A stretch of 64,000 bases of DNA from contig JBAZJB010000001.1 of the NCBI GenBank assembly GCA_041651575.1, forward strand, positions 546,096 to 610,095, given 5' to 3'. A program made the position numbers and the translations under genes. A model generated the notes under the pieces. That model worked only from the letters and a program-made list of their open reading frames with translations. It did no database searches and had not been told where the DNA came from. Position 1 is the stretch's first letter, and every line of letters begins with the position of its first letter. Positions 38,215-51,540 of the stretch are shown piece by piece. This DNA is from Candidatus Nanoarchaeia archaeon (lineage in GTDB: Archaea; Nanobdellota; Nanobdellia; SCGC-AAA011-G17; JAFCDX01).

Positions 38215-38937
38215 TTAACTTATTTGATTTGAACTTTTTAATGCAAATACAAATGCAATGTTTTCATTAGTACATGGATTTTTAATATTTTGCACATTAC
38301 ACTTTATTAAACTATCGCTTTGTATACATTGTAAGTTACTACTCTGAGAACATACTTCAAAAGATTTGGAAGATAAACAGGTTTTAAGTTTATATGCCTC
38401 ATCTATAATCTCTTGTATTTTGGTTGTATCTGCATTAATTTCTGTATTAAAGTTTATGTTTAATTTGTAAGTTATATCCATTTTTTCTTTCATTTCTTGT
38501 AAAGTTAATGAATCTGCAACGGCTTTAATTTTAATTTTATTTCCATAATCTAAAGTAAAAGTATATTTATAATCTGTTTTAACTCTTTCTTTGAAATTAT
38601 TTTTAAATTCTGATTCGAAATATTCGCTAAAAATAGGGTTGCAATTAGGAGTAAAATCCCAAACCATATGATTTCCTACAAGACAATTTGGATTATTTAA
38701 CAAACCTTTTTCTAAACTTATTTGTAAAGCATTACAAGCAGCAAGTTTTGCATTTTCTTGTATTGAAAAAACCATATTTTCTTTTTCTGTATAAAAATTA
38801 ATTAATTCTGTAGAAAACATACCTACGTTTTTTTGTTCATCTTTTATAATATCACTATAAAAAATCCCCAAAAATATTACTGTAAAAAGAAAAGCAAATA
38901 TTGCTAATAGGGGTAAAAATATTCCTTTCTTATTCAT
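38215..38937 (-). CDS. Pilin-like protein (class III signal peptide)
   Basis: N-terminus MNKKG/IFLPLLAIFAFLFTVIFLGIF; last gene of the pilus-like operon. Confidence 0.5.
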   Translation of the reverse strand: MNKKGIFLPLLAIFAFLFTVIFLGIFYSDIIKDEQKNVGMFSTELINFYTEKENMVFSIQENAKLAACNALQISLEKGLLNNPNCLVGNHMVWDFTPNCNPIFSEYFESEFKNNFKERVKTDYKYTFTLDYGNKIKIKAVADSLTLQEMKEKMDITYKLNINFNTEINADTTKIQEIIDEAYKLKTCLSSKSFEVCSQSSNLQCIQSDSLIKCNVQNIKNPCTNENIAFVFALKSSNQIS

Positions 38938-39434
38938 TCTATCACCAACTTTATTTTTATTTCTTTATCAAAATCGGGTAAATTGAATTCAGAAGAAGTT
39001 GTTTTATCTGTTTCTATTATTCCGCCTAATTCTGCAGGTGTTCCAAAATCTTCGCTCATTGCTACTTTTCCCTGAGAAATTATTTGATTATCTATGTACA
39101 AGTTATATTGATCAAATAGTTTATTGAATATCTTCTGGTTTATACCTTCTAAATTTGTTCTATATTTTTCTTTGTTTTTAACATACATTCTTATTAAATC
39201 GGAAACTAAAACTTCTTGTCCTTCAACATTTACCGGTGTTCTTAAATAATTTAATAAAATACTGTTAACATCTATTTTTTCTTTAGCAAGAATTTCTTGT
39301 TTAACAGAATCAATTCCAAAAGAGAATATAAAAAATATAATTAGTGTAACAAATATTAAAATTATAGCTCCAAGATTATAAAAAATCATACCTATTCCTT
39401 TTTTCCCAATTTTATCAAGTTTAAACATTTTCAA
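38934..39434 (-). CDS. Pilin-like protein (class III signal peptide)
   Basis: ...GKKG/IGMIFYNLGAIILIFVTLIIFFIF; overlapping gene boundaries. Confidence 0.5.
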   Translation of the reverse strand: MKMFKLDKIGKKGIGMIFYNLGAIILIFVTLIIFFIFSFGIDSVKQEILAKEKIDVNSILLNYLRTPVNVEGQEVLVSDLIRMYVKNKEKYRTNLEGINQKIFNKLFDQYNLYIDNQIISQGKVAMSEDFGTPAELGGIIETDKTTSSEFNLPDFDKEIKIKLVIE

Positions 39435-39897
39435 ATATCACGTCATAATTTAAAATAGCCCCTTGTTTTTTATTATCTTTTACTAAAAGAACATAATCCT
39501 TTTTTTCATAAAAAGTATATTTCTCGTTTTTTATTTTTATATTTTTTAAATTTTTATTTAAATCATATTCTTTTTTATTATAATAAGTATCAATTTTTTC
39601 TCCGTTAAGAGTTTCTATAGTTATATTTAGTTGCAGATCTTCATTATTGAAACAAGATTCTATTAAAGGAAATTTATTTGCATCTATTATTCCAAAATTA
39701 TTTCTTTCATCTTCATAAGATAAACAAGAATAAGCTTTATACAAAACAAGTTGGGGTTCATATTCAGAAACATCTATATTTCTTGTTAAAAAAGTCCAAG
39801 TTATTGAAGCAAATATTACTAAAATTACTGCTAAAACCAATATATTAAATGCCCATACAGGAATATCTATATCTAAGGAATCTCCTTTTTTATTCAT
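39421..39897 (-). CDS. Pilin-like protein (class III signal peptide)
   Basis: MNKKG/DSLDIDIPVWAFNILVLAVILVIF. Confidence 0.5.
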   Translation of the reverse strand: MNKKGDSLDIDIPVWAFNILVLAVILVIFASITWTFLTRNIDVSEYEPQLVLYKAYSCLSYEDERNNFGIIDANKFPLIESCFNNEDLQLNITIETLNGEKIDTYYNKKEYDLNKNLKNIKIKNEKYTFYEKKDYVLLVKDNKKQGAILNYDVIFENV

Positions 39898-40283
39898 GAT
39901 ATTGAAACCTCGTTATTTTCTTTTTTAATGGTTATAATAGGAGTTTTAGCTTCTTTTTCAACATTGGAATTAAAAAAACATTTATATGAAGAAGGAGTTC
40001 TTGAATAAACTTTTTCACTTGATTCATAAATTTGAAGCAAACATGGTTTTTTTATGTTCAAAACATAATCTGAACTATCAAAATTAATTTTTATAGAAAT
40101 ATCATTTGGACTTGCTGAAACTGCATCCAAAGCAAAAGCAGATTCTATAGCTAAATATTTTTGTTTAAATAATTGATCTTCTGCTATTTTCACTGATAAT
40201 CCCACAAATGCTCCAAGAATTAATATTGCAAGAAACATGTACGACAGCCACAAGTACTGCATCTCATACCCTCTTTTATTCAT
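39894..40283 (-). CDS. Pilin-like protein (class III signal peptide); start taken at internal Met MNKRG
   Basis: MNKRG/YEMQYLWLSYMFLAILILGAFVGL. The listed ORF extends to 40349 and would overlap the upstream gene. Confidence 0.5.
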   Translation of the reverse strand: MNKRGYEMQYLWLSYMFLAILILGAFVGLSVKIAEDQLFKQKYLAIESAFALDAVSASPNDISIKINFDSSDYVLNIKKPCLLQIYESSEKVYSRTPSSYKCFFNSNVEKEAKTPIITIKKENNEVSIS

Positions 40284-40326
40284 AAAAAGAAAAAGATTTG
40301 TTAATTTATAATGGTTTTGATTACAC

Positions 40327-41982
40327 CTAACCAAAATATTGATTTGCATATTTTGTTCTTATTCCGATATCTCTCTCGGGCTTAGCTGGATTTTCTATGT
40401 TTATCACAAACCAAGCCACCCATTCATTTCTAGTTTTTTGTTTTACTATTTCAGTGCCATAAAAAGTTTTTAAATAAAATACCATAAATTCAATTTGTTT
40501 ATTATAATCTAAAAGAGCATTTAATTTATCTTGACTATTTGCATTTTCTAGAGTATAATATTTTAAGAATTGTCTTCCCAAGGCGGTTTTTCCACAAATA
40601 TTATATTGCCATAATCCATAAGAACAATAGTTAGTTGAACCTATTGGACTAGGATCTCCCATATTATTATAAGAAAGAGCAGATTCTCCAACAGCATTTG
40701 CAACCATAGCTTCTGCTAAATTAATATTATTAAATCTAGCATTTATATCATCCCTTAATTGGTTTGCAGAAACATATAATAATTTTGGTTTTTTCACATT
40801 TATGGCCCCGCTACTTTGAGTTTGTGATGAACCTATTTGTGATTGTTCAATTGTAGAAGGAACATAAGTTGTTGAAGAAGCTTGTTGATTTTGTATAGCT
40901 GTAAGTGTTGGAGAATTTTCACAATTAGTACAACTAGGAGAAATTTCATAACCGGAATGAGGCAAATAATTTAATGGATCTCTTTCATAATTAGGTTTAC
41001 CAATATCTGCAGAAAAATCTTGAGATAAATAAACTTTAAAATCTAAATGAGGTCCTTCTGAAAATCCAGTATTTCCTGACAATCCAATAATATCTCCTTT
41101 CGTAACTTGTTGTCCTTCTGTAACTTTAATTTCGGATAAATGATCATATCTTGTGTATAAATTTTCATTGTGTTTAATTATAATATATCTACCATAGCCT
41201 CTGCAAAGTTCTTTATAATCAATATCCTCTTTACCACATATTTCTATTACTGTTCCATCTTCAACAGTTTTAATTTCTGTACCTATAGGAGTTGTAAAAT
41301 CTACACCATCATGCCAATCATTAGTTCTTTGACCATAAGCAGAAAAAATAATTGGATTAGCTAAAGGAAATATACTGAATATTGAAGAGGTAGAAAGAGT
41401 CTCTTCAACAGGTTTTTCTTTATATATAATTAAAACTCCATTTTCTTTTTTGAAATAAATTGTTTTAGAATCTTTGTTATTTTCTGCAGAAATGTAATTA
41501 TCTCCAAAACCAACAAAATCTATTTTTTGTATATTTTTTAAAATATCTACTAATTCTTTTTTTCCACAATAATAATTATCTGTACAATAATATCCCTCTC
41601 CTTTTTTCTCAACTTCACAAACACAAAGTTTAGATTTACCTAAAATTTCATTACTCATTTCAGTAGAAGTTATCTGTAAAGAAAGGTCTGCTTTAGAAGG
41701 ATAAAAACCAGCAAGAATGCACTCTTTATTTTCAAAATATACTATTGTCTCTTTTATTTTATTTTCTTCAAGAATATTTATATCATTTAAAAGAATATTT
41801 AAAGCACTTGTTGTTTGATCATCCATGCATGCTTGAAAAGGTATTGTTGTTTTGTATAAATTACAAGAAGTAGTAATAAAAAATAATAAGAGTATAAGTC
41901 CTAAAATTAATCCAACTGGAACCTCTTGAAAATTCAATCCTTTTTTCATTTTAATTTTTTGGTATAGTATCTGCTGTTCCAA
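40327..41982 (-). CDS. Pilin-like protein fused to M23-family peptidase and lytic-transglycosylase-like (SLT) domains
   Basis: N-terminus MKKG/LNFQEVPVGLILGLILLLFF (likely start at 41949). M23 core: WHDGVDF (HxxxD)...GNTGFSEGPHLDF. C-terminus GESALSYN...SYGLWQ resembles the SLT catalytic motif E-S...G-L-M-Q. Confidence 0.6.
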   Translation of the reverse strand: MEQQILYQKIKMKKGLNFQEVPVGLILGLILLLFFITTSCNLYKTTIPFQACMDDQTTSALNILLNDINILEENKIKETIVYFENKECILAGFYPSKADLSLQITSTEMSNEILGKSKLCVCEVEKKGEGYYCTDNYYCGKKELVDILKNIQKIDFVGFGDNYISAENNKDSKTIYFKKENGVLIIYKEKPVEETLSTSSIFSIFPLANPIIFSAYGQRTNDWHDGVDFTTPIGTEIKTVEDGTVIEICGKEDIDYKELCRGYGRYIIIKHNENLYTRYDHLSEIKVTEGQQVTKGDIIGLSGNTGFSEGPHLDFKVYLSQDFSADIGKPNYERDPLNYLPHSGYEISPSCTNCENSPTLTAIQNQQASSTTYVPSTIEQSQIGSSQTQSSGAINVKKPKLLYVSANQLRDDINARFNNINLAEAMVANAVGESALSYNNMGDPSPIGSTNYCSYGLWQYNICGKTALGRQFLKYYTLENANSQDKLNALLDYNKQIEFMVFYLKTFYGTEIVKQKTRNEWVAWFVINIENPAKPERDIGIRTKYANQYFG

Positions 41983-42127
41983 TAATGTCTTTTACAATAT
42001 TTCCTAGTTTTAAAATTAATTTAGAAATATTTCCTCCAAAAAATATTATAACTATTGCTAAAACAATTAAAAAAAGAATTACAACAACTATAGTATTAAT
42101 TGGTAATTCCTGTGATTTTTTATTCAT
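41951..42127 (-). CDS. Small pilin-like protein (58 aa, below ORF-track cutoff)
   Basis: MNKKSQELPINTIVVVILFLIVLAIVIIFFGG... Its stop lies 2 nt before the MKKG start of the downstream gene. Confidence 0.4.
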   Translation of the reverse strand: MNKKSQELPINTIVVVILFLIVLAIVIIFFGGNISKLILKLGNIVKDIIGTADTIPKN

Positions 42128-42145
42128 TTTAAAAATAAAAAGGAA

Positions 42146-42505
42146 TTAACAAGCGCCTTCTGCTTCTATTACAGGACAACTCATTCCTAATTTCTTGCAA
42201 GTCAATCCTTTTTCATCAGATCCAATGTTTCCATTACCATTTAAGTCTACATTGAATTTTTGGTTACAGAAGTTATCTCTATAAGCAGTTATTGGATTGT
42301 TTTCGTACTGCATACAATAATTATTACATCTGTTTGTTGCTTCTGGAACATCTGTTAGTTGACTACCAAATAAAGCCTTTATTTTAGTAGTTAAACTTGC
42401 CATCCCACCTGTGAAAAATATTGCAACTATAACTAAAACTATAATTACTATGATAGTTATAATTATAACATCCATAGAAATTCCTTGTCCTCTCTTATTT
42501 TTCAT
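42146..42505 (-). CDS. Pilin-like protein (class III signal peptide), Cys-rich C-terminal domain
   Basis: MKNKRGQ/GISMDVIIITIIVIIVLVIVAIFF; 8 Cys in the globular part. Confidence 0.6.
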   Translation of the reverse strand: MKNKRGQGISMDVIIITIIVIIVLVIVAIFFTGGMASLTTKIKALFGSQLTDVPEATNRCNNYCMQYENNPITAYRDNFCNQKFNVDLNGNGNIGSDEKGLTCKKLGMSCPVIEAEGAC

Positions 42506-42571
42506 TTAATCACCTAAATAAAGACAAAATATAAATATTTAAATGTTTTGATTACACAAAATCAATAAAAA

Positions 42572-43237
42572 TTAGGTACAATAAGGTAATCTACTTGTTG
42601 TAATATAGTTACTTAAATCCTCATCTGCGATAAATTCCCCTGATTGAGATCTACTTACAACAAAACAAATCTGATTATCTTTTTTATAAAAGATTATATT
42701 ATTATAAAAAAAGTAATATTTATCAAATAATCCAGAATCAGTATTTACATTTTCTCTATCTTCTAAGGCTCTTGTAACTTCGTAAGATAAAATAGCTGCA
42801 TTTCCTTTTAAATCTTTTATAGTGCCTTTTTTATCTATATCATAAGATTCTAGATAACAATTCATCGTTTTTCCAGTAAAAAGATTTTTTCCATTTACAA
42901 CAGAACTTTCTAATTGTTCCCATTGACTTCCTTTTCTTTTTTCTAGAGAAAGTATTCCTTTAGTTACAACAATTCTATAATTTATAGAAAAACTCGGGCC
43001 TACAATTTTACAAACACAATCACTATTTTTAGAATCAAAACAAGTTTTATAATTATTTTTTAAAACTGAAAAATCACTTATAACTTGGGAATCTGTTTTT
43101 GAATCTCCCCCAAGAATTTTATCATAAGCCGTTGTTAATTTGTTAATTAAATTAATAGGACCAAGTAAGCTAACACCTACGATTAAAAGTAATAAAAATC
43201 CCGCCATTATTGTTTTTAGAGTAAAACTCGTTGCCAT
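42572..43237 (-). CDS. Pilus-associated secreted protein (N-terminal hydrophobic helix)
   Basis: MATSFTLKTIMAGFLLLLIVGVSLLG; ATG start at 43237 (the ORF track extends to 43246 via a non-ATG codon). Confidence 0.45.
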   Translation of the reverse strand: MATSFTLKTIMAGFLLLLIVGVSLLGPINLINKLTTAYDKILGGDSKTDSQVISDFSVLKNNYKTCFDSKNSDCVCKIVGPSFSINYRIVVTKGILSLEKRKGSQWEQLESSVVNGKNLFTGKTMNCYLESYDIDKKGTIKDLKGNAAILSYEVTRALEDRENVNTDSGLFDKYYFFYNNIIFYKKDNQICFVVSRSQSGEFIADEDLSNYITTSRLPYCT

Positions 43238-43238
43238 T

Positions 43239-43391
43239 TTATCCAAACCCTAATTTTGTAAATATCATTTCAATTATATTATATATTTTTTCTTTTCCCA
43301 TCCAAACCAAACCCAATAAAATAAAAAAAATTATTAAGGCTAAAACTAATTTTACTAATTCAGATACTTCAATTTCTCCTTTTTTGTTCAT
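43239..43391 (-). CDS. Small pilin-like protein (50 aa, below ORF-track cutoff)
   Basis: MNKKG/EIEVSELVKLVLALIIFFILLGLVW. ATGA overlap with the upstream gene stop; 1-nt gap to the downstream start. Confidence 0.45.
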   Translation of the reverse strand: MNKKGEIEVSELVKLVLALIIFFILLGLVWMGKEKIYNIIEMIFTKLGFG

Positions 43392-44212
43392 TGACATATT
43401 TTTTTAACCTCTTCAGAATTAAAAATAAATACTCCTTGATAAGCTTTTTCATGGTATATTGTTGTTCCAATAGCTGTAGGTATTGCTGCCATAAAACCTC
43501 CCAAAATAGCTCCGGGTCCTGACCATGAAGTTGCTGCTGTTCCAGCAACAAAACCAGCAACAAAAGCTTCACCTAAAAATATTAATCCTTCTTTATTTGT
43601 TAATTGTTCCCAACCAGGATTAAGTTTTGCTATGTAATAAATATAAACAGGTTTATTCAAAGGAACTTTATCTAAGTTTCCAAGATCTTTTATATTTAAA
43701 TCTTGAGAAATTGGATTTTTTGAACTAGTAAAATATTGTAAATAAGTTTGGTCTCCTGCAGGAATTTTTGTATCTTTCAAATAATCCCATAAATTTACTT
43801 GTCCATTTGTTAAATCTTCAGAAAAATCAATTTTTGAACATAAAAAACAATTAAGACCATAACGATTAAAACTAAATTTTTTTAAGAAGTTTATTTTTCC
43901 TTCCCCAAATTGATACCAACAATTATACATTTCAGTAGCAATCGTCTTTTCTACTTTATGTGGAGTAGATATTTTATCTATAAACACTGGATTTGATTTA
44001 CAAAATAAAGGAGTATTCATAAATTGCCCAACACCTACACTATTTAATCTTGCCTTAAACTCTACGCTTATTTTACATAATGCCACATTGGAAACTGAAA
44101 AAAGTCTTGGTCCTAAAGTTACAGTTAAAACAAGAATTAAAATAACTGTTGCCATTAAAAGCACGGCTAATTTTACTACAGTTTCATGAGTCATCCCTTT
44201 TTTATTCAACAT
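43388..44212 (-). CDS. Pilin-like protein (class III signal peptide), 274 aa
   Basis: MLNKKG/MTHETVVKLAVLLMATVILILVLTV. Confidence 0.55.
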   Translation of the reverse strand: MLNKKGMTHETVVKLAVLLMATVILILVLTVTLGPRLFSVSNVALCKISVEFKARLNSVGVGQFMNTPLFCKSNPVFIDKISTPHKVEKTIATEMYNCWYQFGEGKINFLKKFSFNRYGLNCFLCSKIDFSEDLTNGQVNLWDYLKDTKIPAGDQTYLQYFTSSKNPISQDLNIKDLGNLDKVPLNKPVYIYYIAKLNPGWEQLTNKEGLIFLGEAFVAGFVAGTAATSWSGPGAILGGFMAAIPTAIGTTIYHEKAYQGVFIFNSEEVKKICQ

Positions 44213-44365: not shown

Positions 44366-46426
44366 TTAACCTCCAGAGGTTATTGAACTTGCTATTGCTG
44401 AACTAGATAATATTGTTGAAGATAATAAATTAAATATTAAAATAACTATCAAAGCCAATATGAAGTATAGCATAGTCCCTCTTAACAAATTTTTACCTAG
44501 CAAATATTTTTCATTTAATTTATCTGGACCATTTTCAATACCATTTGCTAATATTGTTAAAATAAATATAACTTCTACAACATAAACACCAACAACTAAT
44601 TGGAAATAAAATGAAGGAATTATATCTTGTACTTTAAATAAATTAGCAACCATAGCAATATTTCCACCCATAGTTTCTTGTGTAGCACCTGCACCGACTT
44701 TAGTAAACAATTTTTCCATGTTTACAATTATTCCAGTAATCATAGATCCAATACCGACAACAATTCCAGCTATAACTGGGGCCATAAAAGAAATTTGAGA
44801 TTTCATAGAAGAAACTATTTCTGTTAATAAATCTTTTAATCTTTCATTTACTCTATGGATTTCATCAACGTAATTTGAAATGCTAATCAAAGATCTTGCA
44901 GCAACTCTTGGACCTTTTTTAACACTCTCTAATAAAACCTCCATAGAAGATTGAACTAATGTTGAAGGATAAGATAAAATTGCTCCTGTTTTTTCATTGA
45001 AAATTGCTTCTTTTAAATTCATTCCTAAATTTCTTATATTAACGCTTACTATTCTGAAAAAATCTCCTGTTGGAGTATTAGACATATTTTGTGCTACTGT
45101 ACCTACTGCCAATTCTGCAGGAATTCCATCTTCAAGTCTATTTCCTAATTGGAATAATGAAGAAGCAAATTCTTTTTCAAGAGATTTAGTTTCTTCTCTC
45201 ATTTTAACTAAATCTTTTGCTTGATTTTTATAATAAATTGATAAACCAAATGCTAATCCTAATGGGAAAAATAAACTCATTAATGCTGCACCTAAACCAA
45301 ATGGCCCACAAGCACCATCGCATCTATAATCCAAAACATTTCCCATTTTTTCTGTAATTAAATAATCTTGTTCTGGAGAAATATAATGTAAAAACAAAGG
45401 TAATATTCCTATAAAACAGAATAAAATTATAATAATTGCTGGAAAGAATTTTGATTTTTTTTCTTTCAACATATCTTGTTCTATTGAAGATTCTCCATAA
45501 CCTGTAGGTCTTTTACTAAGAATATCATAACCAAAAGTAAATACTGCTAAAGGCAATATAATGTTGTAAAGTAAAGCTAGATGATACCATTTTACTATTC
45601 CTCCCATAAAAGAAGAAACTAATGGAAATATCACCAGCCCTAAAATTGGTAAAATTACCCCAAGCATATGTAACATTGTAATTGGATTTTTTAATTCTTG
45701 AGCATAATGCAACATTTTTTCATAAGTTCCGTTTAACATTACTTCAAGAGCTTTGTCAAGTAATTGTATTCTTCTTTCTTCAGAAGGTTCTAATAAAGAA
45801 GATTCAATTAAATGGAATGAATTTACAAATTCTAAATTATAATCTCTCCAATTTTCTAAATAAGAATTTAAAGATTCTTTTATTGTAGAATATCTTCCTG
45901 TTTCAATATCCCAAAAAACTTTTCTAAAATCTAAAGATAATGGTGACCCTATATGTTCTGTTGCGAATTTAATTGCGTGTTCCAAATTTGAAGTATGACG
46001 CATGTACATAACAATATATAAAACACAAAGAACCATTTGATTAGAAGCTTTTAATCTCCATCTATTTGCAAGATAAATTGGAGCATTTGATAAGGGTTTT
46101 AAAATAACTGCGGCAAATATAATTAATATCAATGGAAAAAATACCATTGTTGTTCCTGCTTCTTCAGATAATCCTGTTTCTTCATCAATGGCTCCTTCTG
46201 AAGGATTTGATAATAAATAAGAACCTGCCATTAAAGTAATTGCAAACAATACAAGAATTATTGCAGCCAAAACAGCCAAACTTGTTGCACCATTTGGACT
46301 AATGTTTAAATGAGTTGTTTCTATTGCTTTTTCTAATTTTGGTCTAGTTTCTTCATTAGGTTTTATTGTAATTATTTTTTCTGCAATATTACATAAAGAC
46401 TCGTATCTAGAAGAAGTTTTTGGCAT
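44366..46426 (-). CDS. Type IV pilus / archaellum platform membrane protein (TadC/FlaJ/GspF-like)
   Basis: 686-aa polytopic membrane protein with two cytoplasmic helical domains; sits between the ATPase and the pilins. Confidence 0.65.
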   Translation of the reverse strand: MPKTSSRYESLCNIAEKIITIKPNEETRPKLEKAIETTHLNISPNGATSLAVLAAIILVLFAITLMAGSYLLSNPSEGAIDEETGLSEEAGTTMVFFPLILIIFAAVILKPLSNAPIYLANRWRLKASNQMVLCVLYIVMYMRHTSNLEHAIKFATEHIGSPLSLDFRKVFWDIETGRYSTIKESLNSYLENWRDYNLEFVNSFHLIESSLLEPSEERRIQLLDKALEVMLNGTYEKMLHYAQELKNPITMLHMLGVILPILGLVIFPLVSSFMGGIVKWYHLALLYNIILPLAVFTFGYDILSKRPTGYGESSIEQDMLKEKKSKFFPAIIIILFCFIGILPLFLHYISPEQDYLITEKMGNVLDYRCDGACGPFGLGAALMSLFFPLGLAFGLSIYYKNQAKDLVKMREETKSLEKEFASSLFQLGNRLEDGIPAELAVGTVAQNMSNTPTGDFFRIVSVNIRNLGMNLKEAIFNEKTGAILSYPSTLVQSSMEVLLESVKKGPRVAARSLISISNYVDEIHRVNERLKDLLTEIVSSMKSQISFMAPVIAGIVVGIGSMITGIIVNMEKLFTKVGAGATQETMGGNIAMVANLFKVQDIIPSFYFQLVVGVYVVEVIFILTILANGIENGPDKLNEKYLLGKNLLRGTMLYFILALIVILIFNLLSSTILSSSAIASSITSGG

Positions 46427-46566: not shown

Positions 46567-48873
46567 TTATATCTCAGACTTTTCAAATGTTTTTTGTTTA
46601 ATATACTTTTTCAATTCATCTTCCCATCTAAAAAATATTTTTTTATCATCTAATTTTCCAGTTTCTGTTCTTACGTCGCTTGAAATCTTATGAAATATAT
46701 CATTAAATAAAACTACTGTTTCTGATTCTAATAAATCAGGCATATTGGTTATTTTAGAATATTTGACTAAGGTTTCTTTTAATTTTGCTCTTAATAAAAT
46801 ATTATTCCACACCGCATCCCAATTGCCTGCCCATTCTTTTATGTTTCCAGCTATTGCTTTTACAATTTCAGATTCTCCATTTATCAAAGCATCTGTTGGT
46901 TGCAAAGAATCTGTTTTTGAATCATATTTCATTAAATCTACAAATCCATTTTCTTTTAGAGGATCATCTTCCCATTCTTTTCTTACTTCAGTAATTTGAG
47001 TTATTCTTCTCCATTTATGCATTCCATCTGGGCTCCTTATTGGATTACAAATAATTATTATATCTGTAGCTTTGAAACTAGTTCTAGGAACTTTTAAATC
47101 ATTTACAACTCTATCAAAAACACCATAAGGACTATCTCCATGAATTGTTCCTGCTACAACATTAGCAAGAGCACCGACACGCATTGCTTCATACAAAGCT
47201 AAAGCTTCTGTGCTTCTAATTTCTCCAACTATCAAAGAAGAATCTCCCATTCTTAATGAAGTTCTTATACCTTCATCTGCTGCAATTTCAGAAGATTTTC
47301 CCATTAAAGCAGCTCTAACTTTCATAGGTTGAATATTATATCCTAAATCTCTTAATTTATCTGTGCTCAATTCAAAAGTATCTTCAACAGTAATTATTCT
47401 AAATTTTCTCATTATTTCTAATAAACAAGAATCTAAAAAACTAGTTTTACCAGAACCTCTTGTACCTGCAACTATCATTGTCCTTGCTCCATCAATTAAA
47501 AAACTAATTAAACCAGCTGCCAAAGGAGATAACATTCTATTTTCAATATACAAAGGTAAAGTCCAAGGCTTATCTCTGTGTCTTCTTAATGAAAATGCTA
47601 GACCAGATGGATTTAAAGGTCTAGTAATTATTGCTACTCTGTTTCTTGAATTTGGAAGAGTTAATTCTGTATCTAAAACAGGATTTGCTTCATCCAAAGG
47701 TCTTCCAGATAATAATCTAAATTTAGTTGCCCAACCTTCTCCATCATCTAAACTAGGATAAATATTTGTAACACATTCATCATAATCTGAATGAACGATA
47801 AAAATTGGAGTTTGTCCTATAGGCCCATTAATAGAAATATCTTGAACTTTTTTATCATTCAATAAAATTTCTATTAATCCAAATCCTACAGTATATCTAA
47901 CTAAAATATCTGCAAGCTCTTCTATTTCATTATAAGAAATCTCTATTCCTCTATGAGTCGCTAATTCAGTAAGTAAATCTTTTCCTATATTGAAAAAAGT
48001 TTTTCTTATTCTTTCTGGATCTACGAATTCTTCTGCTTTTGGTTTGTGTTCTGACAAAACAGATTTTGCTAAAGTTAATAACATATATTTATCTTCAGAA
48101 ATTTTAAATTCTGGAGGTTCTAAATGATATAATAATTTTATATCTCCAGGAGTTCTAAAAATTGTTACATTTGTTTTTGCATCCACAGAATAAGCATCTA
48201 TTTCTTCTCCATTCAAAGGAGGATCTGCCATTAATCTTGTATACATAAAATCAGGAGTGATAACTGCTCTGAAAATTTTTCTATAAACATCTCTCGTACC
48301 TACTTGATATCCATCAATGTAAGGTTTTGCCATTGCAATTAATTTTGTTTTGTCTAAAAAATTCTTTACTAAATTCAGTAAATTCATATAATGTTGTCTA
48401 CATTCCGAACATTTTGGAATAGTTGTTTTTCCTTGTAAAATTGTTTCTTCTCTAACTAACCTTTTTAATTCTACGTAAGCACCTATTGGATCTGATCTTA
48501 ATAAATTAAGAATAATATACTGAACTTGGGATAATCTTTCAGGCAAGCAAGTTGTACATTCTAAACTAGTTCCCATCGCACCTAAAGATAATATTTTTTT
48601 CTGTTTTAAAAAATAATTATGTATTGTAGCAATTTCTAATAACATTGAAGTATTATCAAAACTATATTCGTAATTTTTTCCATATTGAGAAAAAACAATT
48701 TTGTGCACGCTAGGATTTTGCATTAAATATTCTATTGTTTTAGACATACAAATATCACTATCTTCAATTGAAGGAGAAAAAGGATAATTATTATAATTCA
48801 TCCATATAATTTCTTCATTACCTTCTTTTATTACTTCGTAATCACCTGGTTTTGTTTTCTTGCTAAATAACAT
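46567..48873 (-). CDS. Type II/IV secretion-system ATPase (FlaI/TadA/VirB11 family) with ~250-aa N-terminal extension
   Basis: Walker A AGTRGSGKTSF, Asp/Walker B box SSLIVGEIRSTEA, and a His box. Confidence 0.85.
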   Translation of the reverse strand: MLFSKKTKPGDYEVIKEGNEEIIWMNYNNYPFSPSIEDSDICMSKTIEYLMQNPSVHKIVFSQYGKNYEYSFDNTSMLLEIATIHNYFLKQKKILSLGAMGTSLECTTCLPERLSQVQYIILNLLRSDPIGAYVELKRLVREETILQGKTTIPKCSECRQHYMNLLNLVKNFLDKTKLIAMAKPYIDGYQVGTRDVYRKIFRAVITPDFMYTRLMADPPLNGEEIDAYSVDAKTNVTIFRTPGDIKLLYHLEPPEFKISEDKYMLLTLAKSVLSEHKPKAEEFVDPERIRKTFFNIGKDLLTELATHRGIEISYNEIEELADILVRYTVGFGLIEILLNDKKVQDISINGPIGQTPIFIVHSDYDECVTNIYPSLDDGEGWATKFRLLSGRPLDEANPVLDTELTLPNSRNRVAIITRPLNPSGLAFSLRRHRDKPWTLPLYIENRMLSPLAAGLISFLIDGARTMIVAGTRGSGKTSFLDSCLLEIMRKFRIITVEDTFELSTDKLRDLGYNIQPMKVRAALMGKSSEIAADEGIRTSLRMGDSSLIVGEIRSTEALALYEAMRVGALANVVAGTIHGDSPYGVFDRVVNDLKVPRTSFKATDIIIICNPIRSPDGMHKWRRITQITEVRKEWEDDPLKENGFVDLMKYDSKTDSLQPTDALINGESEIVKAIAGNIKEWAGNWDAVWNNILLRAKLKETLVKYSKITNMPDLLESETVVLFNDIFHKISSDVRTETGKLDDKKIFFRWEDELKKYIKQKTFEKSEI

Positions 48874-48946: not shown

Positions 48947-49300
48947 ATGCCTGAGGTGACCATAACAGCAGAAAATGTTCTAGCAGATTTAAATGCTAGA
49001 ATAAGAGTTCTAGAAGAAAAGCAGAACATTTTAAGAGAGAAATTACTTGTAGTTAATCAAAATATGCTAGAAGAATATAAAAGGCTTATACAAGAAATAA
49101 AGATTATAAACACCGATTTAAGAGATTTAAAAGAAGATTTATCAAATAATAAAGAAATGATGAGGCATTTTATAAAAGAAATGGAAAATTTCGCTAGAAA
49201 AGAAAATTTATTAATTTTAGAAAAGTATATTAAGTTGTGGGACCCTATGAAATTTGTAACTGAAGAAGAGGTTATAAAACTAGTAAAAGAAAAGAGGTAA
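48947..49300 (+). CDS. Coiled-coil protein, divergent from pilus ATPase
   Basis: 117 aa, heptad-rich. Confidence 0.4.
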   Translation: MPEVTITAENVLADLNARIRVLEEKQNILREKLLVVNQNMLEEYKRLIQEIKIINTDLRDLKEDLSNNKEMMRHFIKEMENFARKENLLILEKYIKLWDPMKFVTEEEVIKLVKEKR

Positions 49301-49303
49301 ATA

Positions 49304-49876
49304 ATGGCAAACGAATTCAGGGACATAAAAGAAGGTGTAGCAAGAAGTTCTGATAATCCTGGAATTAGTGGAATGCAACCATCTATGTTACCTAAAGAAG
49401 AAATTACAATGGCTGAAGAAGAAGCACCTTCTGCAGAACCAGAACTTCCAGAAGAAGAAGTTGAACAACCTATTGAAGAAGATATTCCAAATACTCCTTT
49501 GATACCTACAACCTCTGTTCCAATGGTTGAACAACCAAGAAGAGATTTCCAAGAACAAATAGAAGAAATTACAGAAGCAGTAGTTAATGAAAAATGGGAA
49601 GAGTTAATGACCAATGTTGGAAATATTGCCATATGGAGAGAAAAAATTAATACAGATGTAAGATCAATAAAACAAGAAATAATAAGAATTGAAGAAAGAT
49701 TTGGAAGTTTACAAAATGCAGTCATTGGAAAAGTAGAAGATTATCATCAAACTATGACAAATGTTGGAGCAGAAATGAAAGCTCTTGAAAAAGTTCTTGA
49801 AAGAATAATGCAACCTTTAGCAACAAACATCAGAGAATTAAATAAAATAACAGAAGATTTAAAGAAGAAAAAATAA
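49304..49876 (+). CDS. Acidic coiled-coil protein
   Basis: 190 aa, Glu/Pro-rich N-terminus then a coiled-coil C-terminus. The antisense ORF 49057-49725 is judged spurious. Confidence 0.4.
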   Translation: MANEFRDIKEGVARSSDNPGISGMQPSMLPKEEITMAEEEAPSAEPELPEEEVEQPIEEDIPNTPLIPTTSVPMVEQPRRDFQEQIEEITEAVVNEKWEELMTNVGNIAIWREKINTDVRSIKQEIIRIEERFGSLQNAVIGKVEDYHQTMTNVGAEMKALEKVLERIMQPLATNIRELNKITEDLKKKK

Positions 49877-50401
49877 TTATTTACTTCCTATTTGATGTCC
49901 GACAAATCTTACAGTTAAAGAAGCAATTATTAATAAAAATATAGCTCCAAGGGTTCTTGGGTGAAATAATGTTCTTAAGGTTTCAGAACCGATAGTTTTA
50001 GTTGTATTTCCTACAGTTTGATAAGGAGTAAAAACATCTCCAAATACTTGGGTTAATCCAATTAATAAAATTAAAAAAGCAATTATCATTACTGTCCATA
50101 CACTCAAATTATTCCAAATATCTTGTTCTTTTATTCCAAAGTGCATTAACACTCCAAATAATAAAATTAAAAATATTGCAATGAAAACAAACCAAGGAAT
50201 AACATAATTAATTAAATCAACTATTGAAGCAGTAAATAAAGTTATCATAGCGACAGAAAATGCAGCTATAAATTTTAATGCATTATTTTCTCCAAGGATT
50301 TTTGTTTTATCCAATAAAGCATACAATCCTGCAAATATAAACAAGAAAGTAAAAATTGGTAAAAAATAATTCAATAATCCCATATCCATTAAGGTTGCCA
50401 T
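49877..50401 (-). CDS. Paralogous membrane protein 1 of 3 (tandem family)
   Basis: Shares an N-terminal motif (YLLPFLLVF.I.FALLEK.KILG) with the next two genes. Confidence 0.5.
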   Translation of the reverse strand: MATLMDMGLLNYFLPIFTFLFIFAGLYALLDKTKILGENNALKFIAAFSVAMITLFTASIVDLINYVIPWFVFIAIFLILLFGVLMHFGIKEQDIWNNLSVWTVMIIAFLILLIGLTQVFGDVFTPYQTVGNTTKTIGSETLRTLFHPRTLGAIFLLIIASLTVRFVGHQIGSK

Positions 50402-50404
50402 TTT

Positions 50405-50950
50405 TTAACTTTTTCCAAAGAAAGCTTTTACCATATCTTTTGCTGGACTTTCGTTTTTTGGTTTTCTAGTGAACATTGCTACAACGACTACAATAGTAAC
50501 TATTAAAATTATCCAAGCTTTATCTTCATCTGTTGGATGGAACCAAGTAGGCATATATATTCCTGCACTTGGTGAAATTGCCCAAATTATTCCAAGAATA
50601 CAAACTATTAAAGCAATTATCATTGCTATTCCACCCCAATCTCCTGCATAATCAGAACCAAACATTCCCAATACTAATAAAAACATTAAAATAACTATTA
50701 TCATCAAAGAAACTTTTGGTAAAAATTGATTAATTAAATAAACTATTTGTGGTTGTGCTATTAACAATGCACCCATTGCAAAAGAAACAACAACATTAAT
50801 ATTTGTTTTTGGATTTTCTTCTTTATCTTTTCCCAAAATTTTTAATTTTTCTAATAAAGCAAAAATAATTGAGAATACTAATAGGAAAGGAAGTAAATAT
50901 TCGTATACTCCCATTGCTTGTAATGATTGAAGTGTTGAAGCTATGCTCAT
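50405..50950 (-). CDS. Paralogous membrane protein 2 of 3
   Basis: See paralog 1. Confidence 0.5.
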   Translation of the reverse strand: MSIASTLQSLQAMGVYEYLLPFLLVFSIIFALLEKLKILGKDKEENPKTNINVVVSFAMGALLIAQPQIVYLINQFLPKVSLMIIVILMFLLVLGMFGSDYAGDWGGIAMIIALIVCILGIIWAISPSAGIYMPTWFHPTDEDKAWIILIVTIVVVVAMFTRKPKNESPAKDMVKAFFGKS

Positions 50951-50961
50951 TTTTCCTCTTT

Positions 50962-51540
50962 TTAATCTTCTTTTTTATTTGGCTTAAAACCAGTTACATA
51001 TAAGATTGCTCCTATAATAACGGCTAATAAGATTATACTTGAAACTGCTGATCCTCCCCAATTTCCCATAACATAATTATATGCTTGTTCAAGCCAAGAA
51101 CATTCTTGACCAGAAGTACAATAAGGAGATTCACCTAATATTGAAGACATAAATATAATTATAACTCCTGCAAACATCCCTATTGTAAAAATATAATAAA
51201 AGGTTGTATGTTTCTTTTTCAAATCAAATTCATCTGTAGTTGCAAATACTCCAATCATCAATAAGAAACTAATTGAAATCATAACTAATAAAATTATGTT
51301 TGGTAAAGCTAAATTTAATGCAGTTACAACTCTATTGCTTGCAACAACTAATAAAGCAATAACAAAAGCAACCATAGAATCAAGATTTTTCTTTGGTTTC
51401 TTATCTTCTGCACCTAAAATCATAGTTTTTTCTAAAATTGCAAATACAATTGTGAAAACTAATAAGAAAGGTAATAATATATCAAATAAGCCAAATGATT
51501 TAAAAAATTCAATGGCTCCTGCCAAAGGTGAATCTGCCAT
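50962..51540 (-). CDS. Paralogous membrane protein 3 of 3
   Basis: See paralog 1. Confidence 0.5.
   Translation of the reverse strand: MADSPLAGAIEFFKSFGLFDILLPFLLVFTIVFAILEKTMILGAEDKKPKKNLDSMVAFVIALLVVASNRVVTALNLALPNIILLVMISISFLLMIGVFATTDEFDLKKKHTTFYYIFTIGMFAGVIIIFMSSILGESPYCTSGQECSWLEQAYNYVMGNWGGSAVSSIILLAVIIGAILYVTGFKPNKKED

What the first reader, a model, noticed from the sequence alone, without database searches (positions are those of the whole stretch)
40327..41982. Pilin-like protein carrying peptidoglycan-hydrolase-type domains (M23 peptidase plus lytic-transglycosylase-like) in an archaeon
This gene sits inside a type IV pilus-like operon and begins with an archaeal class III (prepilin) signal, MKKG/LNFQEVPVGLILGLILLLFF. 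The middle carries an M23 (LytM) core with HxxxD = WHDGVDF and GNTGFSEGPHLDF; the second zinc-ligand motif reads H-L-D rather than HxH. The C-terminus resembles the lytic transglycosylase catalytic signature (GESALSYN...SYGLWQ against E-S...G-L-M-Q). Archaea lack murein. A murein-targeting enzyme delivered on a pilin-like anchor therefore suggests an attack or attachment device aimed at a bacterial partner or prey, or at pseudomurein. Alternatively it is an HGT-derived moonlighting protein. A tip-located cell-wall hydrolase on an archaeal pilus would be a previously undescribed arrangement.
Basis: partly seen in the sequence, partly recalled or inferred. Interest (0 to 1): 0.85.

Follow-up and report, generated by a model that had tools for sequence, protein, structure and literature searches.

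The report
Archaeal pilin carrying bacterial-wall-cutting enzymes
A tiny DPANN archaeon encodes, inside a conserved type IV pilus-like operon, a pilin-like protein whose outer part is a two-enzyme cutter of bacterial cell wall. It belongs to a small archaeal family whose recognisable cargo is only such enzymes, which suggests a pilus-linked tool for breaching bacterial walls.

Summary
The gene is on the minus strand and most likely starts at the ATG at 41949 (540 aa), not the TTG at 41982.

It encodes four parts:
- an MKKG leader plus hydrophobic helix, like about nine neighbouring pilin-like genes;
- a Cys-rich carrier domain;
- a clear M23 peptidase (Pfam E=1e-25) with HxxxD intact and HxH changed to HxD;
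- a C-terminal domain of the phage-tail-lysozyme family PF18013, not the SLT family.

The contig is archaeal (TFB, Alba, S8e, Spt5), from a Nanoarchaeia/Woesearchaeota-type organism.

New findings:
- The carrier domain defines a family of 91 sequence clusters. Named members are all Nanoarchaeia or Woesearchaeota, and 90% carry the [KR][GA] leader.
- Every Pfam-recognisable cargo in that family is a murein hydrolase: SLT, Amidase_2, M23, M15/VanY, glucosaminidase.
- The gene keeps a fixed operon slot. A near-identical genome (ATPase 96% identical) carries SLT+Amidase_2 there instead.
- In other lineages, M23 is fused to a second pilin-like carrier from the same operon.

Best reading: a modular minor pilin that displays a bifunctional murein hydrolase against bacteria. 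Enzyme activity, leader cleavage and tip location are untested. Peptidoglycan hydrolases in Nanoarchaeota and modular pilins in bacteria were already known; their combination appears undescribed.

The parts
46567..48873 (-). Secretion ATPase of the type IV filament family (768 aa), first gene of the operon
   Evidence: Pfam T2SSE E=1.6e-15. NCBIfam FlaI 5.7e-35 and TadA 2.6e-32. 96.5% identical in the sister genome L053.
44366..46426 (-). Polytopic membrane protein (686 aa) in the position of the platform protein
   Evidence: Conserved position in L001, L003, L006 and L053. 85% identical in L053. No T2SSF Pfam hit, so the role is inferred from position.
43388..44212 (-). Pilin-like protein, 274 aa (MLNKKG + hydrophobic stretch)
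   Evidence: Motif scan. Only 27% identical in L053.
43239..43397 (-). Mini pilin-like protein, 52 aa (MSMNKKG...)
   Evidence: Syntenic 50-59 aa genes in L003, L006 and L053.
42572..43237 (-). 221-aa protein with an N-terminal hydrophobic helix but no K-G motif
   Evidence: Syntenic in all related loci.
42146..42505 (-). 119-aa pilin (MKNKRG|QGISMDVIIITIIV...), candidate major pilin
   Evidence: The best-conserved pilin-like gene, 86.6% identical in L053. The major-pilin role is inferred.
41951..42127 (-). 58-aa mini pilin-like ORF (MNKKSQELPINTIVVVILF...). Its stop codon lies one base before the target's ATG.
   Evidence: Read from the sequence. Syntenic 50-64 aa genes in L003, L006, L007 and L053. 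60% identical in L053.
40327..41949 (-). The gene in question: 540-aa modular pilin-like murein hydrolase (stop codon 40327-40329)
41938..41949 (-). Leader MKKG (aa 1-4), putative prepilin-peptidase site after Gly4
   Evidence: The same M-x-K-[KR]-[GA] start occurs in about 9 operon neighbours and in 82 of 91 family representatives. Cleavage is not tested.
41860..41937 (-). Hydrophobic N-terminal helix (aa 5-30; Glu at +5 after the Gly)
   Evidence: AlphaFold helix 9-35 with pLDDT about 95.
41410..41841 (-). Cys-rich carrier domain (aa 37-180) with six conserved Cys: C41, C77, C109, C111, C122, C128
   Evidence: Alignments A2, A4 and A11. 91 family representatives, always at aa ~40-165. AlphaFold pLDDT 79: one helix plus 7 strands.
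40885..41370 (-). M23 metallopeptidase domain plus a clade-specific tail (aa 194-355). Key residues: H213, D217, H270, H301, D303.
   Evidence: Pfam 90.3 bits. PDB M23 hits. Residue census. AlphaFold pLDDT 80-90 here.
40774..40884 (-). Ser/Thr/Gln-rich linker (aa 356-392)
   Evidence: Sequence. pLDDT below 50.
40330..40773 (-). Phage-tail-lysozyme-like domain (aa 393-540) with invariant E422-S423 and G445-L-W-Q-Y-N450
   Evidence: PF18013 E=2.5e-5, 24.9 bits. 45% identical to P0006, which passes the cut-off. 35-40% identical to phage proteins that pass it. Alignment A8.
39894..40283 (-). Pilin-like protein, 129 aa (MNKRG...)
   Evidence: 49% identical in L053.
39421..39897 (-). Pilin-like protein, 158 aa (MNKKG...)
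   Evidence: 46% identical in L053.
38934..39428 (-). Pilin-like protein, 164 aa (..KIGKKG...)
   Evidence: 55% identical in L053.
38215..38937 (-). Pilin-like protein, 240 aa (MNKKG...), last gene of the operon. Its homologues in other Woesearchaeota carry M23 and other wall-enzyme domains.
   Evidence: A profile of this protein matches the N-termini of the M23 proteins in L014, L017, L011 and L013 (E=1.5e-14 to 2.6e-6 in a 10-sequence set). Cargo of L011, L014 and L017.

Best explanation
The gene encodes a modular minor pilin of a DPANN (Nanoarchaeia/Woesearchaeota-type) type IV pilus-like system.

Shown:
- The protein has a [KR]-G leader plus hydrophobic helix and a Cys-rich carrier domain.
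- An M23 endopeptidase module and a phage-tail-lysozyme-type module are joined to it by a flexible linker.
- The gene sits at a fixed slot in a conserved operon of an ATPase, a membrane protein and about ten pilin-like genes.

Inferred:
- After export, a prepilin peptidase removes the leader after Gly4.
- The hydrophobic helix inserts the protein into the filament or a short pseudopilus. Because the protein is bulky, it most likely sits at or near the tip.
- The two enzyme modules are thereby presented outside the cell.
- On contact with a bacterium, the M23 module cuts peptide cross-links and the lysozyme-like module cuts glycan strands. This opens the murein locally so the archaeon can attach closely, feed or lyse the cell.
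- This is the same two-bond strategy that phage tail-associated lysins use.
- The HxD variant of the zinc site is probably still active, with Asp replacing His as a metal ligand.
For: Domains:
- M23: 90.3 bits, with four of five catalytic residues invariant.
- The HxD variant is conserved in 12 of 14 archaeal rows (two are duplicate sequences). It also occurs in 7 bacterial hits whose precomputed Pfam domains include M23 and, in six of them, a Csd3-type N-terminal domain.
- C-terminal PF18013 relatives pass the Pfam cut-off, and E-S and GLWQYN are invariant.

Pilin character:
- A leader plus hydrophobic stretch is shared with about 9 operon neighbours and with 82 of 91 family members.
- Ordinary Sec-type signals in the same window look different.
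- The AlphaFold model of aa 1-189 (pLDDT 79) shows a long N-terminal helix, a second helix and a 7-strand sheet.

Operon:
- Conserved synteny in L001, L003, L006, L007 and L053.

Target is murein:
- Every Pfam-recognisable cargo among the 91 carrier-domain clusters is a murein hydrolase: SLT 14, Amidase_2 10, M23 8, Peptidase_M15 3, plus one each of M15_4, VanY, M15_3 and glucosaminidase.
- Among the two-cargo members scanned, each pairs one glycan-cutter with one peptide- or amide-cutter.

Independent fusion:
- In other Woesearchaeota, M23 is fused to a second pilin-like carrier, the homologue of the operon's last gene. In L011 it is accompanied by a 3D domain. A further 1336-aa pilin-like protein, L016, combines M23, SLT and YkuD.

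Host-interface signature:
- Against the sister genome L053, housekeeping and machine genes are 86-96% identical but minor pilins only 27-59%. The same-slot protein there carries SLT+Amidase_2.

Precedents:
- Phage proteins with M23 followed by Phage_lysozyme2, and tail lysins combining PF18013 with M23 (PMC10194240).
- Bacterial modular pilins (PMC8179133).
- Peptidoglycan hydrolases prominent in Nanoarchaeota (PMC12352652).
Against: - No enzyme assay exists, and the zinc-ligand His of HxH is replaced by Asp.
- Pfam and NCBIfam searches returned no family other than M23, PF18013 and a weak biotin-lipoyl match for this protein, so no class III signal or pilin model was hit.
- No prepilin peptidase was found in the 64-kb window.
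- The platform protein has no T2SSF hit.
- The fold of the C-terminal domain could not be modelled (pLDDT below 50). Its own Pfam score is below the cut-off.
- The host or prey organism is unknown.
- Whether this genome lacks murein synthesis genes could not be checked from the window.
Confidence: 0.55

Rival explanations
1. Membrane-anchored ecto-enzyme only. The N-terminus acts as an uncleaved signal-anchor. The hydrolase sits on the archaeal surface or is shed, and is merely co-expressed with the pilus. It digests bacterial wall at the contact zone, or free murein debris as a source of amino sugars and amino acids, without being part of a filament.
For: - No class III or pilin model hits the protein.
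- No prepilin peptidase was found in the window.
- The carrier fold is not recognisably pilin.
- Published readings of DPANN wall hydrolases are antagonism or scavenging (PMC9723730, PMC12352652).
Against: - The conserved [KR][GA] motif ahead of the helix occurs in 90% of the family and in all neighbouring small pilin-like genes. A plain anchor would not need it.
- The gene keeps a fixed slot amid the pilin genes in the five genomes checked.
- Wall enzymes were fused independently to a second pilin-like carrier of the same operon.
Confidence: 0.25
2. Adhesin rather than enzyme. The HxD M23 domain is a degenerate, non-catalytic murein-binding module, as in EnvC, NlpD or SpoIIQ. The protein then mainly tethers the pilus to bacterial wall, and any cutting is left to the lysozyme-like domain.
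For: - The zinc-ligand His is replaced.
- Degenerate M23 folds with binding or regulatory roles are well known (PMC9662197).
Against: - Only one of five catalytic positions differs, and the replacement, Asp, can bind metal.
- The change is conserved across the clade, and flanking residues are strongly conserved.
- P0004, a family member, keeps HxH in the same architecture.
Confidence: 0.12
3. Self-wall 'space-maker'. The archaeon itself has a murein-like sacculus, and the enzyme opens it locally so that the pilus can be assembled. This would resemble VirB1, FlgJ or PrgK-type hydrolases in bacterial secretion and flagellar systems.
For: - Bacterial trans-envelope machines often encode a dedicated, membrane-anchored bifunctional wall hydrolase in the same operon (established knowledge).
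- One relative, L016, even carries a YkuD L,D-transpeptidase domain.
Against: - Archaea are not known to make murein (established knowledge).
- No wall-synthesis gene was recognised among the roughly 35 window ORFs scanned against Pfam.
- A housekeeping space-maker would not be expected to swap its whole catalytic cargo between genomes whose ATPase is 96% identical.
Confidence: 0.05
4. Artefact: a bacterial (for example CPR) or phage fragment mis-assembled into an archaeal bin.
For: Both catalytic domains have their nearest non-archaeal relatives in bacteria and phages.
Against: - The gene lies on the same contig, within a few kb, as archaeal RPA, S15, GAN/Cdc45, S3Ae, TFB and Alba genes.
- GC content is uniform at about 27%.
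- The same arrangement was recovered in independent assemblies and samples.
Confidence: 0.01

Closest known systems
Bacterial modular type IV pilins (e.g. Streptococcus sanguinis PilB and PilC; Raynaud et al. 2021, PMC8179133)
   Same: A small pilin module (class III leader ending in Gly, a ~21-residue hydrophobic helix with Glu5) has a bulky functional module grafted on through a linker. It is a minor subunit and is predicted to be tip-exposed. Many alternative modules sit on the same kind of carrier.
   Different: - The known cases are bacterial.
- Their modules are mostly adhesive (vWA, lectin) or of unknown function.
- Here the host organism is an archaeon, the carrier is an unrelated Cys-rich domain, and the cargo is catalytic murein hydrolases.
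Phage tail-associated (virion-associated) peptidoglycan hydrolases, e.g. phi29 gp13 (lysozyme-like + M23) and enterococcal tail lysins with PF18013 + M23 (PMC10194240)
   Same: - A glycan-cutting lysozyme-like domain of family PF18013 is combined with an M23 endopeptidase on one polypeptide.
- It is carried at the end of a filamentous or tubular device to breach murein locally from outside.
- Phage proteins with M23 followed by PF18013 in the same order exist (L044, L045).
   Different: - The carrier is a pilin-like module of a cellular type IV filament system, not a phage tail.
- The phage M23 in L045 is only 28% identical and degenerate, so the cassette was not copied whole.
- In phi29 gp13 the domain order is reversed (from memory of Xiang et al. 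2008).
Archaeal peptidoglycan hydrolases that kill bacteria (Strock et al. 2025, PMC12352652) and GH23 lytic transglycosylases of 'vampiristic' Woesearchaeota (Vigneron et al. 2022, PMC9723730)
   Same: These are murein hydrolases of bacterial type, including M23, encoded by archaea and especially by Nanoarchaeota/Woesearchaeota. They are interpreted as weapons or feeding tools against bacteria, and domain shuffling is noted.
   Different: - Those studies define hydrolases by a catalytic domain plus a wall-binding domain, or by CAZy class.
- They do not mention pili, pilins or class III signals.
- Here the partner of the catalytic domains is a pilin-like carrier in a pilus operon.
Sulfolobus bindosome (class III-signal sugar-binding proteins assembled by BasEF)
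   Same: Non-pilin functional proteins carry class III signal peptides and depend on a type IV filament-type ATPase and membrane protein for surface assembly. The window's ATPase shows a weak BasE match.
   Different: - The bindosome cargo is solute-binding proteins used for uptake.
- No hydrolases are involved.
- No filament is known to extend from the cell.
Dedicated wall hydrolases of Gram-positive conjugation systems (PrgK, TraG: TM anchor + SLT/LytM/CHAP)
   Same: An N-terminal membrane helix is followed by two or three different murein-hydrolase domains, encoded inside the operon of a trans-envelope machine.
   Different: - Those enzymes open the producer's own wall.
- An archaeon has no murein of its own.
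- The cargo here is hypervariable between near-identical genomes.

Membership tests
Peptidase M23 (PF01551; LytM/lysostaphin type) | Profile match above the curated cut-off | tested here: met
   90.3 bits against a cut-off of 28.7, E=9.6e-26. PDB M23 chains match at E=3e-15.
Peptidase M23 (PF01551; LytM/lysostaphin type) | H(x)nD zinc-binding motif | tested here: met
   H213-D-G-V-D217. Invariant in all 14 archaeal rows and in 118 of 119 other domain rows.
Peptidase M23 (PF01551; LytM/lysostaphin type) | HxH motif (first His catalytic, second His a zinc ligand; PMC9662197) | tested here: not met
   The motif reads H301-L-D303, so the ligand His is replaced by Asp. The same holds in 12 of 14 archaeal rows and in 7 bacterial M23 proteins. 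It is a variant site, not a lost one.
Peptidase M23 (PF01551; LytM/lysostaphin type) | Catalytic His about 30 residues before HxH (LytM His260) | tested here: met
   H270 in YDHLS, present in all 14 archaeal rows.
Peptidase M23 (PF01551; LytM/lysostaphin type) | Zinc-dependent cleavage of murein peptide bridges | not testable with these tools
   Requires an enzyme assay.
Phage tail lysozyme (PF18013, Phage_lysozyme2) | Profile match above the curated cut-off | tested here: inconclusive
   The target scores 20.9 bits (whole protein) or 24.9 bits (domain alone), below 28.2. Relatives 35-48% identical over the full domain pass: P0006 30.2, L043 29.2, L044 37.0, L045 37.6.
Phage tail lysozyme (PF18013, Phage_lysozyme2) | Conserved acidic catalytic residue | tested here: met
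   E422 (with S423) is invariant in alignment A8 of 7 sequences. Its catalytic role is inferred, not shown.
Phage tail lysozyme (PF18013, Phage_lysozyme2) | Lysozyme-like fold | tested here: inconclusive
   The AlphaFold model of this region has pLDDT 22-47. No second modelling job was available. There are no PDB sequence hits.
SLT / family 1 lytic transglycosylase (PF01464, GH23) | Profile match to SLT | tested here: not met
   No PF01464 hit at E<=1. hhalign of the C-terminal family against archaeal SLT domains gives probability 0.9%.
SLT / family 1 lytic transglycosylase (PF01464, GH23) | Motifs E-S, G-L-M-Q and A-Y-N-x-G | tested here: inconclusive
   E-S and G-L-W-Q are present and invariant. 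No A-Y-N-x-G equivalent was seen. This is a resemblance only.
Type IV pilin / class III signal-peptide protein | Short charged leader ending in Gly/Ala, followed by about 20 hydrophobic residues | tested here: met
   MKKG|LNFQEVPVGLILGLILLLFF. The same pattern occurs in about 9 neighbours and in 82 of 91 family members.
Type IV pilin / class III signal-peptide protein | Match to curated class III signal or pilin N-terminal models | tested here: not met
   The Pfam and NCBIfam scans at E<=1 returned no such family for the target or for any operon neighbour.
Type IV pilin / class III signal-peptide protein | Long N-terminal helix packed on a beta-sheet head ('lollipop') | tested here: inconclusive
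Type IV pilin / class III signal-peptide protein | Cleavage by a prepilin (class III) peptidase and incorporation into a filament | not testable with these tools
   No peptidase candidate was found in the window. The rest of the genome is not available here.
Archaeal type IV filament system | Secretion ATPase, platform protein, pilins and a class III peptidase | tested here: inconclusive
   The ATPase is present and pilin-like genes are present by motif. The platform protein is assigned by position only, with no T2SSF hit. No peptidase is in the window.
Modular pilins (sensu Raynaud et al. 2021) | An N-terminal pilin module fused by a linker to a functional module not specific to pilus biology | tested here: met
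   The architecture is leader, helix and carrier (aa 1-180), then M23, an S/T/Q linker and a lysozyme-like domain. Alternative cargo sits on the same carrier. The pilin identity of the carrier carries the caveats given above.

The most novel reading that the evidence does not exclude
Woesearchaeota/Nanoarchaeia-type DPANN archaea possess a dedicated pilus-borne 'lysin' system. The minor pilins of one conserved type IV filament operon serve as interchangeable carriers for polymorphic murein-hydrolase cassettes that sit at the filament tip and breach the wall of bacterial hosts or prey. The cargo and neighbouring minor pilins turn over rapidly in an arms race, even between genomes whose housekeeping proteins are 86-96% identical. 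This would mean that the lineages carrying this system live on bacteria rather than on other archaea, and it would give the first molecular handle on how they do so.
Probability: 0.35. Interest if true: 0.85.

Novelty: new variant of a known kind. Interest (0 to 1): 0.7.

Why it matters
Most DPANN archaea are uncultured. Their hosts and their mode of contact are largely unknown, and all cultured examples live on other archaea.

A conserved pilus operon that carries interchangeable bacterial-wall hydrolases ties the published 'archaeal peptidoglycan hydrolase' arsenal to a specific delivery apparatus. It predicts cross-domain (archaeon-on-bacterium) parasitism or predation.

It also supplies concrete reagents and tests: the carrier-domain family as a genomic marker, recombinant ectodomains for muropeptide assays, and antibodies for cryo-ET or immunolabelling of enrichments.

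Finally, it extends the 'modular pilin' principle to archaea and to catalytic cargo. The compact two-bond lysins could be of practical interest as enzybiotics.

Tried and rejected
1. Searching the 5.8-billion-protein index with the C-terminal domain alone returned nothing, although P0006 had been found with the full-length query. This is a word-index limitation, and the last search of that kind was lost.
2. The full-length AlphaFold model built on a 5-sequence alignment was poor outside M23 (mean pLDDT 45.7).
3. A composite alignment (full-length target plus domain fragments) was misaligned by MAFFT. N-terminal fragments were stretched over aa 1-346 and C-terminal fragments over aa 196-540, so it was discarded. 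The last modelling job went to the N-domain only.
5. hhalign of the C-terminal family against SLT domains was negative. PDB sequence and profile searches with the C-terminal domain gave only chance hits.
6. No prepilin peptidase was found in the window by Pfam on multi-TM ORFs or by a GxGD motif scan.
7. The first bootstrap of archaeal M23 monophyly used a wrong taxon set. It was redone: the archaeal domains are monophyletic in the NJ tree, but with only 90 of 200 bootstraps. A single origin is therefore suggestive, not established.
8. The bacterial HxD M23 proteins are not, as a group, sister to the archaeal clade. The origin of the variant is unresolved.
9. Contamination or mis-binning was considered and rejected.
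10. Pseudomurein as the substrate was rejected on the cargo spectrum (D-Ala-specific M15/VanY, MurNAc-L-Ala amidase).
Full report
**1. What is at the coordinates**

The window is AT-rich (GC about 27% throughout) and archaeal. It encodes TFIIB/TFB, Alba, Spt5-NGN, ribosomal proteins S8e, S3Ae, S15 and L11, FtsZ, an RPA-like protein and a Cdc45/GAN-like DHH protein.

The ORF 40327..41982 lies on the minus strand and is 551 aa if read from a TTG. Public gene calls use the internal ATG at 41949 (540 aa; P0001, named 'peptidoglycan DD-metalloendopeptidase family protein [Candidatus Nanoarchaeia archaeon]', on contigs up to 766 kb).

Reading the 'intergenic' DNA shows a 58-aa ORF at 41951..42127 (MNKKSQELPINTIVVVILF...). 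Its stop codon is one base before that ATG. Genes of 50-64 aa occupy the same position in four related loci. The ATG start is therefore the better one. All residue numbers below use the 540-aa protein.

**2. Domain anatomy**

- aa 1-4: MKKG leader.
- aa 5-30: hydrophobic helix, with Glu at +5 after the Gly.
- aa 37-180: Cys-rich domain with six conserved cysteines.
- aa 194-355: M23 domain plus a clade-specific tail (VY..DFS.D.GKP.Y.RDPL.YLP...C..SPT).
- aa 356-392: Ser/Thr/Gln-rich linker.
- aa 393-540: C-terminal domain.

*M23.* Pfam gives E=9.6e-26, 90.3 bits against a cut-off of 28.7. Solved M23 enzymes match at E about 1e-15, including ShyA, zoocin A, lysostaphin and LytM.

According to the M23 review PMC9662197:
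- zinc is held by the His and Asp of H(x)nD and by the second His of HxH;
- the first His of HxH, and a His about 30 residues upstream, activate the water molecule.

In this protein H213, D217, H270 and H301 are present, and the ligand His is replaced by D303. An HMM-guided census of 133 M23 domain rows collected here gave the following:
- 12 of 14 archaeal rows (two are duplicate sequences) have Asp at this position, and the other four positions are invariant in all 14.
- Three further carrier-family members also have Asp.
- Seven bacterial hits read GPHLDF[RS]. Six of these carry a Csd3-type N-terminal Pfam domain, and one is named MepM/NlpD by its source.

The variant is therefore natural and conserved. 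It is unlike the multiply degenerate EnvC/NlpD type. I infer that the domain is probably active, with Asp as the metal ligand; this is not shown.

E422-S423 and G445-L-W-Q-Y-N are invariant in a 7-sequence alignment. The family, however, is Phage_lysozyme2 (PF18013), not SLT.
- The target scores 20.9-24.9 bits against a cut-off of 28.2.
- It is 45% identical over the whole domain to P0006, which scores 30.2 bits.
- It is 35-40% identical to phage proteins from IMG/VR, including contigs of about 290 kb, which score 29-38 bits.
- There is no PF01464 hit.
- Profile-profile comparison with archaeal SLT domains is negative.

PMC10194240 describes PF18013 as a structural homologue of the lysozyme-like domain of the phi29 tail enzyme. 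It notes that the domain is combined with M23, CHAP or amidase in enterococcal tail lysins.

Two of the phage relatives found here (L044, L045) have M23 followed by PF18013, the same order as the target. Their M23 is only 28% identical and degenerate, so the cassette was not transferred whole.

**3. The operon and the signal**

The genes run downstream of a FlaI/TadA-type ATPase (46567..48873) and a 686-aa polytopic membrane protein (44366..46426).

Almost every gene down to 38215 starts with M-x-K-[KR]-[GA], a few mixed residues, and about 20 hydrophobic residues. A strict motif scan of all six frames of the window gives 8 hits, 7 of them in this 6-kb stretch. Ordinary secretory signals in the same window (for example at 10612, 24004 and 56956) lack the Gly/Ala and the spacer.

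No curated class III signal or pilin model fires on any of these proteins. No prepilin peptidase is present in the window. Processing is therefore inferred.

**4. The carrier domain defines a family whose cargo is murein hydrolases**

A profile of the Cys-rich domain without the helix found 91 representatives among 1.84 billion sequences clustered at 50% identity. The domain always lies at aa ~40-165.
- 82 of the 91 have [KR][GA] within the first 13 residues. At least one exception, P0127, is a mis-called start: P0204 shows the same sequence with an upstream MKKRG.
- The members that carry names are all Nanoarchaeia or Woesearchaeota.

Pfam scanning of all 91 gave only murein-hydrolase families among domains of known function:

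| Pfam family | Members |
|---|---|
| SLT | 14 |
| Amidase_2 | 10 |
| Peptidase_M23 | 8 |
| Peptidase_M15 | 3 |
| M15_4, VanY, M15_3, Extensin-like_C, Glucosaminidase, Phage_lysozyme2 | 1 each |

Three domains of unknown function (DUF2272, DUF4971, DUF5715) also hit one member each.

Every two-cargo member scanned pairs one glycan-cutter with one peptide- or amide-cutter:
- SLT+M23: P0004, P0176, L009.
- Glucosaminidase+M23: P0003.
- SLT+Amidase_2: P0165, P0125.
- M23+lysozyme: the target.

D-Ala-specific peptidases and MurNAc-L-Ala amidases make sense only for bacterial murein, not for pseudomurein (established knowledge).

**5. Synteny and hypervariability**

The gene keeps the same slot in several loci. 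The order is: ATPase, membrane protein, ~270-413 aa, ~52 aa, ~220 aa, ~120-130 aa pilin, ~50-64 aa, the hydrolase pilin, ~103-151 aa, ~160 aa, ~160 aa, ~240-284 aa, RPA.

The most telling comparison is with L053, from another Nanoarchaeia MAG:

| Gene(s) | Identity to window |
|---|---|
| ATPase | 96.5% |
| RPA | 95.7% |
| S15 | 96% |
| GAN | 90% |
| 119-aa pilin | 86.6% |
| Other pilin-like proteins | 27-59% |
| Same-slot protein P0165 | 33%, over the carrier region only |

P0165 carries SLT+Amidase_2 in place of M23+lysozyme. This pattern is what one expects of a surface component engaged with a variable partner. That reading is an inference.

**6. A second, independent fusion**

A scan of GTDB genomes found the nearest M23 relatives in Woesearchaeota, Nanobdellota and Iainarchaeum MAGs, and in two short contigs labelled Methanosarcinales.

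In several of them (L011, L013, L014, L017) the M23 protein is the last gene of a multi-pilin operon, directly upstream of RPA, and is 795-1056 aa long. L011 also has a 3D domain. L016, a 1336-aa protein with a pilin-like N-terminus near a contig end, combines M23, SLT and YkuD.

The N-termini of the L011, L013, L014 and L017 proteins match a profile of the window's last pilin-like gene (38215..38937) and its orthologues. E-values are 1.5e-14 to 2.6e-6 in a 10-sequence search. Wall enzymes have therefore been grafted onto two different pilin-like carriers of the same operon type.

In a neighbour-joining tree the 15 archaeal M23 domains form one clade. Support is weak, at 90 of 200 bootstraps.

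**7. Structure**

The full-length model was reliable only in M23 (pLDDT 80-90).

A model of aa 1-189 built on a 34-sequence alignment reached pLDDT 79 and pTM 0.65. It shows helix 9-35, helix 44-61 and seven strands. This is compatible with a pilin 'lollipop'.

**8. Mechanism**

The best-supported reading is a modular minor pilin that presents a two-bond murein hydrolase on, or at the tip of, a type IV pilus-like filament. It would open bacterial wall locally on contact.

- Shown: domain content, signal motif, operon, family cargo spectrum, cargo swapping, and the independent second fusion.
- Inferred: leader cleavage, filament incorporation, tip position, catalytic competence of the HxD site, and a bacterial target organism.

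Rivals considered:
- a co-expressed but non-filament ecto-enzyme;
- an adhesin with a non-catalytic M23 domain;
- a self-wall space-maker;
- an assembly artefact (rejected).

**9. Comparison with the literature**

Already published:
- Peptidoglycan hydrolases occur in about 5% of archaeal genomes and are 'particularly prominent' in Nanoarchaeota, with M23 in four Nanoarchaeia genomes (PMC12352652).
- GH23 transglycosylases occur in 'vampiristic' Woesearchaeota (PMC9723730).
- Modular pilins are known in bacteria (PMC8179133).

Not found:
- The two hydrolase papers do not contain the words pili or pilin.
- The 2016 census of archaeal type IV pili and a 2026 preprint on archaeal type IV filament systems do not contain the words peptidoglycan or hydrolase.
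- Further full-text searches found no description of a pilin-hydrolase fusion in archaea.

I therefore rate it a new variant of known kinds, of clear specialist interest. It is not categorically new.

Noticed in passing
window 41951..42127 (-) and 43239..43397 (-): Two very small pilin-like ORFs (58 and 52 aa: leader, one hydrophobic helix and a short tail) are conserved in position in all related loci. The 58-aa one falls below the 60-aa ORF listing threshold, and it fixes the target's start codon.
   Followed up: partly
window 23276..32515 (-): A second module of surface proteins lies here. It has a 667-aa protein with a class III-like start (MEKRGQVTIYIILGF...), a 2168-aa protein with a Sec-type signal, and a 243-aa 7-TM protein. 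None has a significant Pfam hit. It may be an adhesin or contact apparatus.
   Followed up: partly
window 49877..51540 (-) and 48947..49876 (+): Three tandem paralogous ~180-aa proteins with about five predicted hydrophobic segments each lie upstream of the ATPase. Two divergently transcribed proteins of 117 and 190 aa lie between them and the ATPase; their only Pfam matches are weak and to helical or coiled-coil-type families. Genes of matching size, order and orientation flank the ATPase in L003, L006 and L053. Their function is unknown, and they may be accessory parts of the filament system.
   Followed up: partly
window 38215..44212 vs L053:7769-13833: The minor pilin-like proteins are 27-59% identical between two genomes whose ATPase, RPA and S15 are about 96% identical. 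The whole minor-pilin set is hypervariable, not just the hydrolase.
   Followed up: yes
L016:373-4383: A 1336-aa Woesearchaeota protein with a pilin-like N-terminus combines M23, SLT and a YkuD L,D-transpeptidase domain. YkuD is a cross-linking or tethering enzyme rather than a hydrolase. It could in principle attach something covalently to host murein.
   Followed up: no
P0076, P0082, P0087, P0093, P0099, P0109, P0119 (bacterial hits): Seven bacterial M23 proteins also have HxD (GPHLDF[RS]) instead of HxH. Six carry a Csd3-type N-terminal Pfam domain. As a group they are not sister to the archaeal clade in the NJ tree, so the variant may have arisen more than once.
   Followed up: partly
L044:3870-5456, L045:3921-5468 (IMG/VR contigs, up to ~290 kb): These phage proteins have M23 followed by Phage_lysozyme2, the same order as the target. 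In L045 the M23 lacks the HxxxD His (NAYD), so it is possibly a degenerate binding domain.
   Followed up: partly
L051:8001-10295 (P0006): The closest cellular relative of the C-terminal domain is a 764-aa protein with an FGE-sulfatase-type domain plus PF18013. It lies next to a 1794-aa protein, enolase, deoxyhypusine synthase and a RelA/SpoT-type gene. The organism was not identified.
   Followed up: no
window 8001..13826 (+): A run of four secreted or membrane-anchored proteins lies here: 825 aa with a sub-threshold right-handed beta-helix match, then 464, 362 and 242 aa with N-terminal hydrophobic segments. None has a significant family assignment.
   Followed up: no
L012 and L015 (contigs labelled 'uncultured Methanosarcinales'): Two short contigs carrying DPANN-type HxD M23 proteins are labelled Methanosarcinales in their records. 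This is likely mis-binning of DPANN DNA, or a hint of physical association. Not examined.
   Followed up: no
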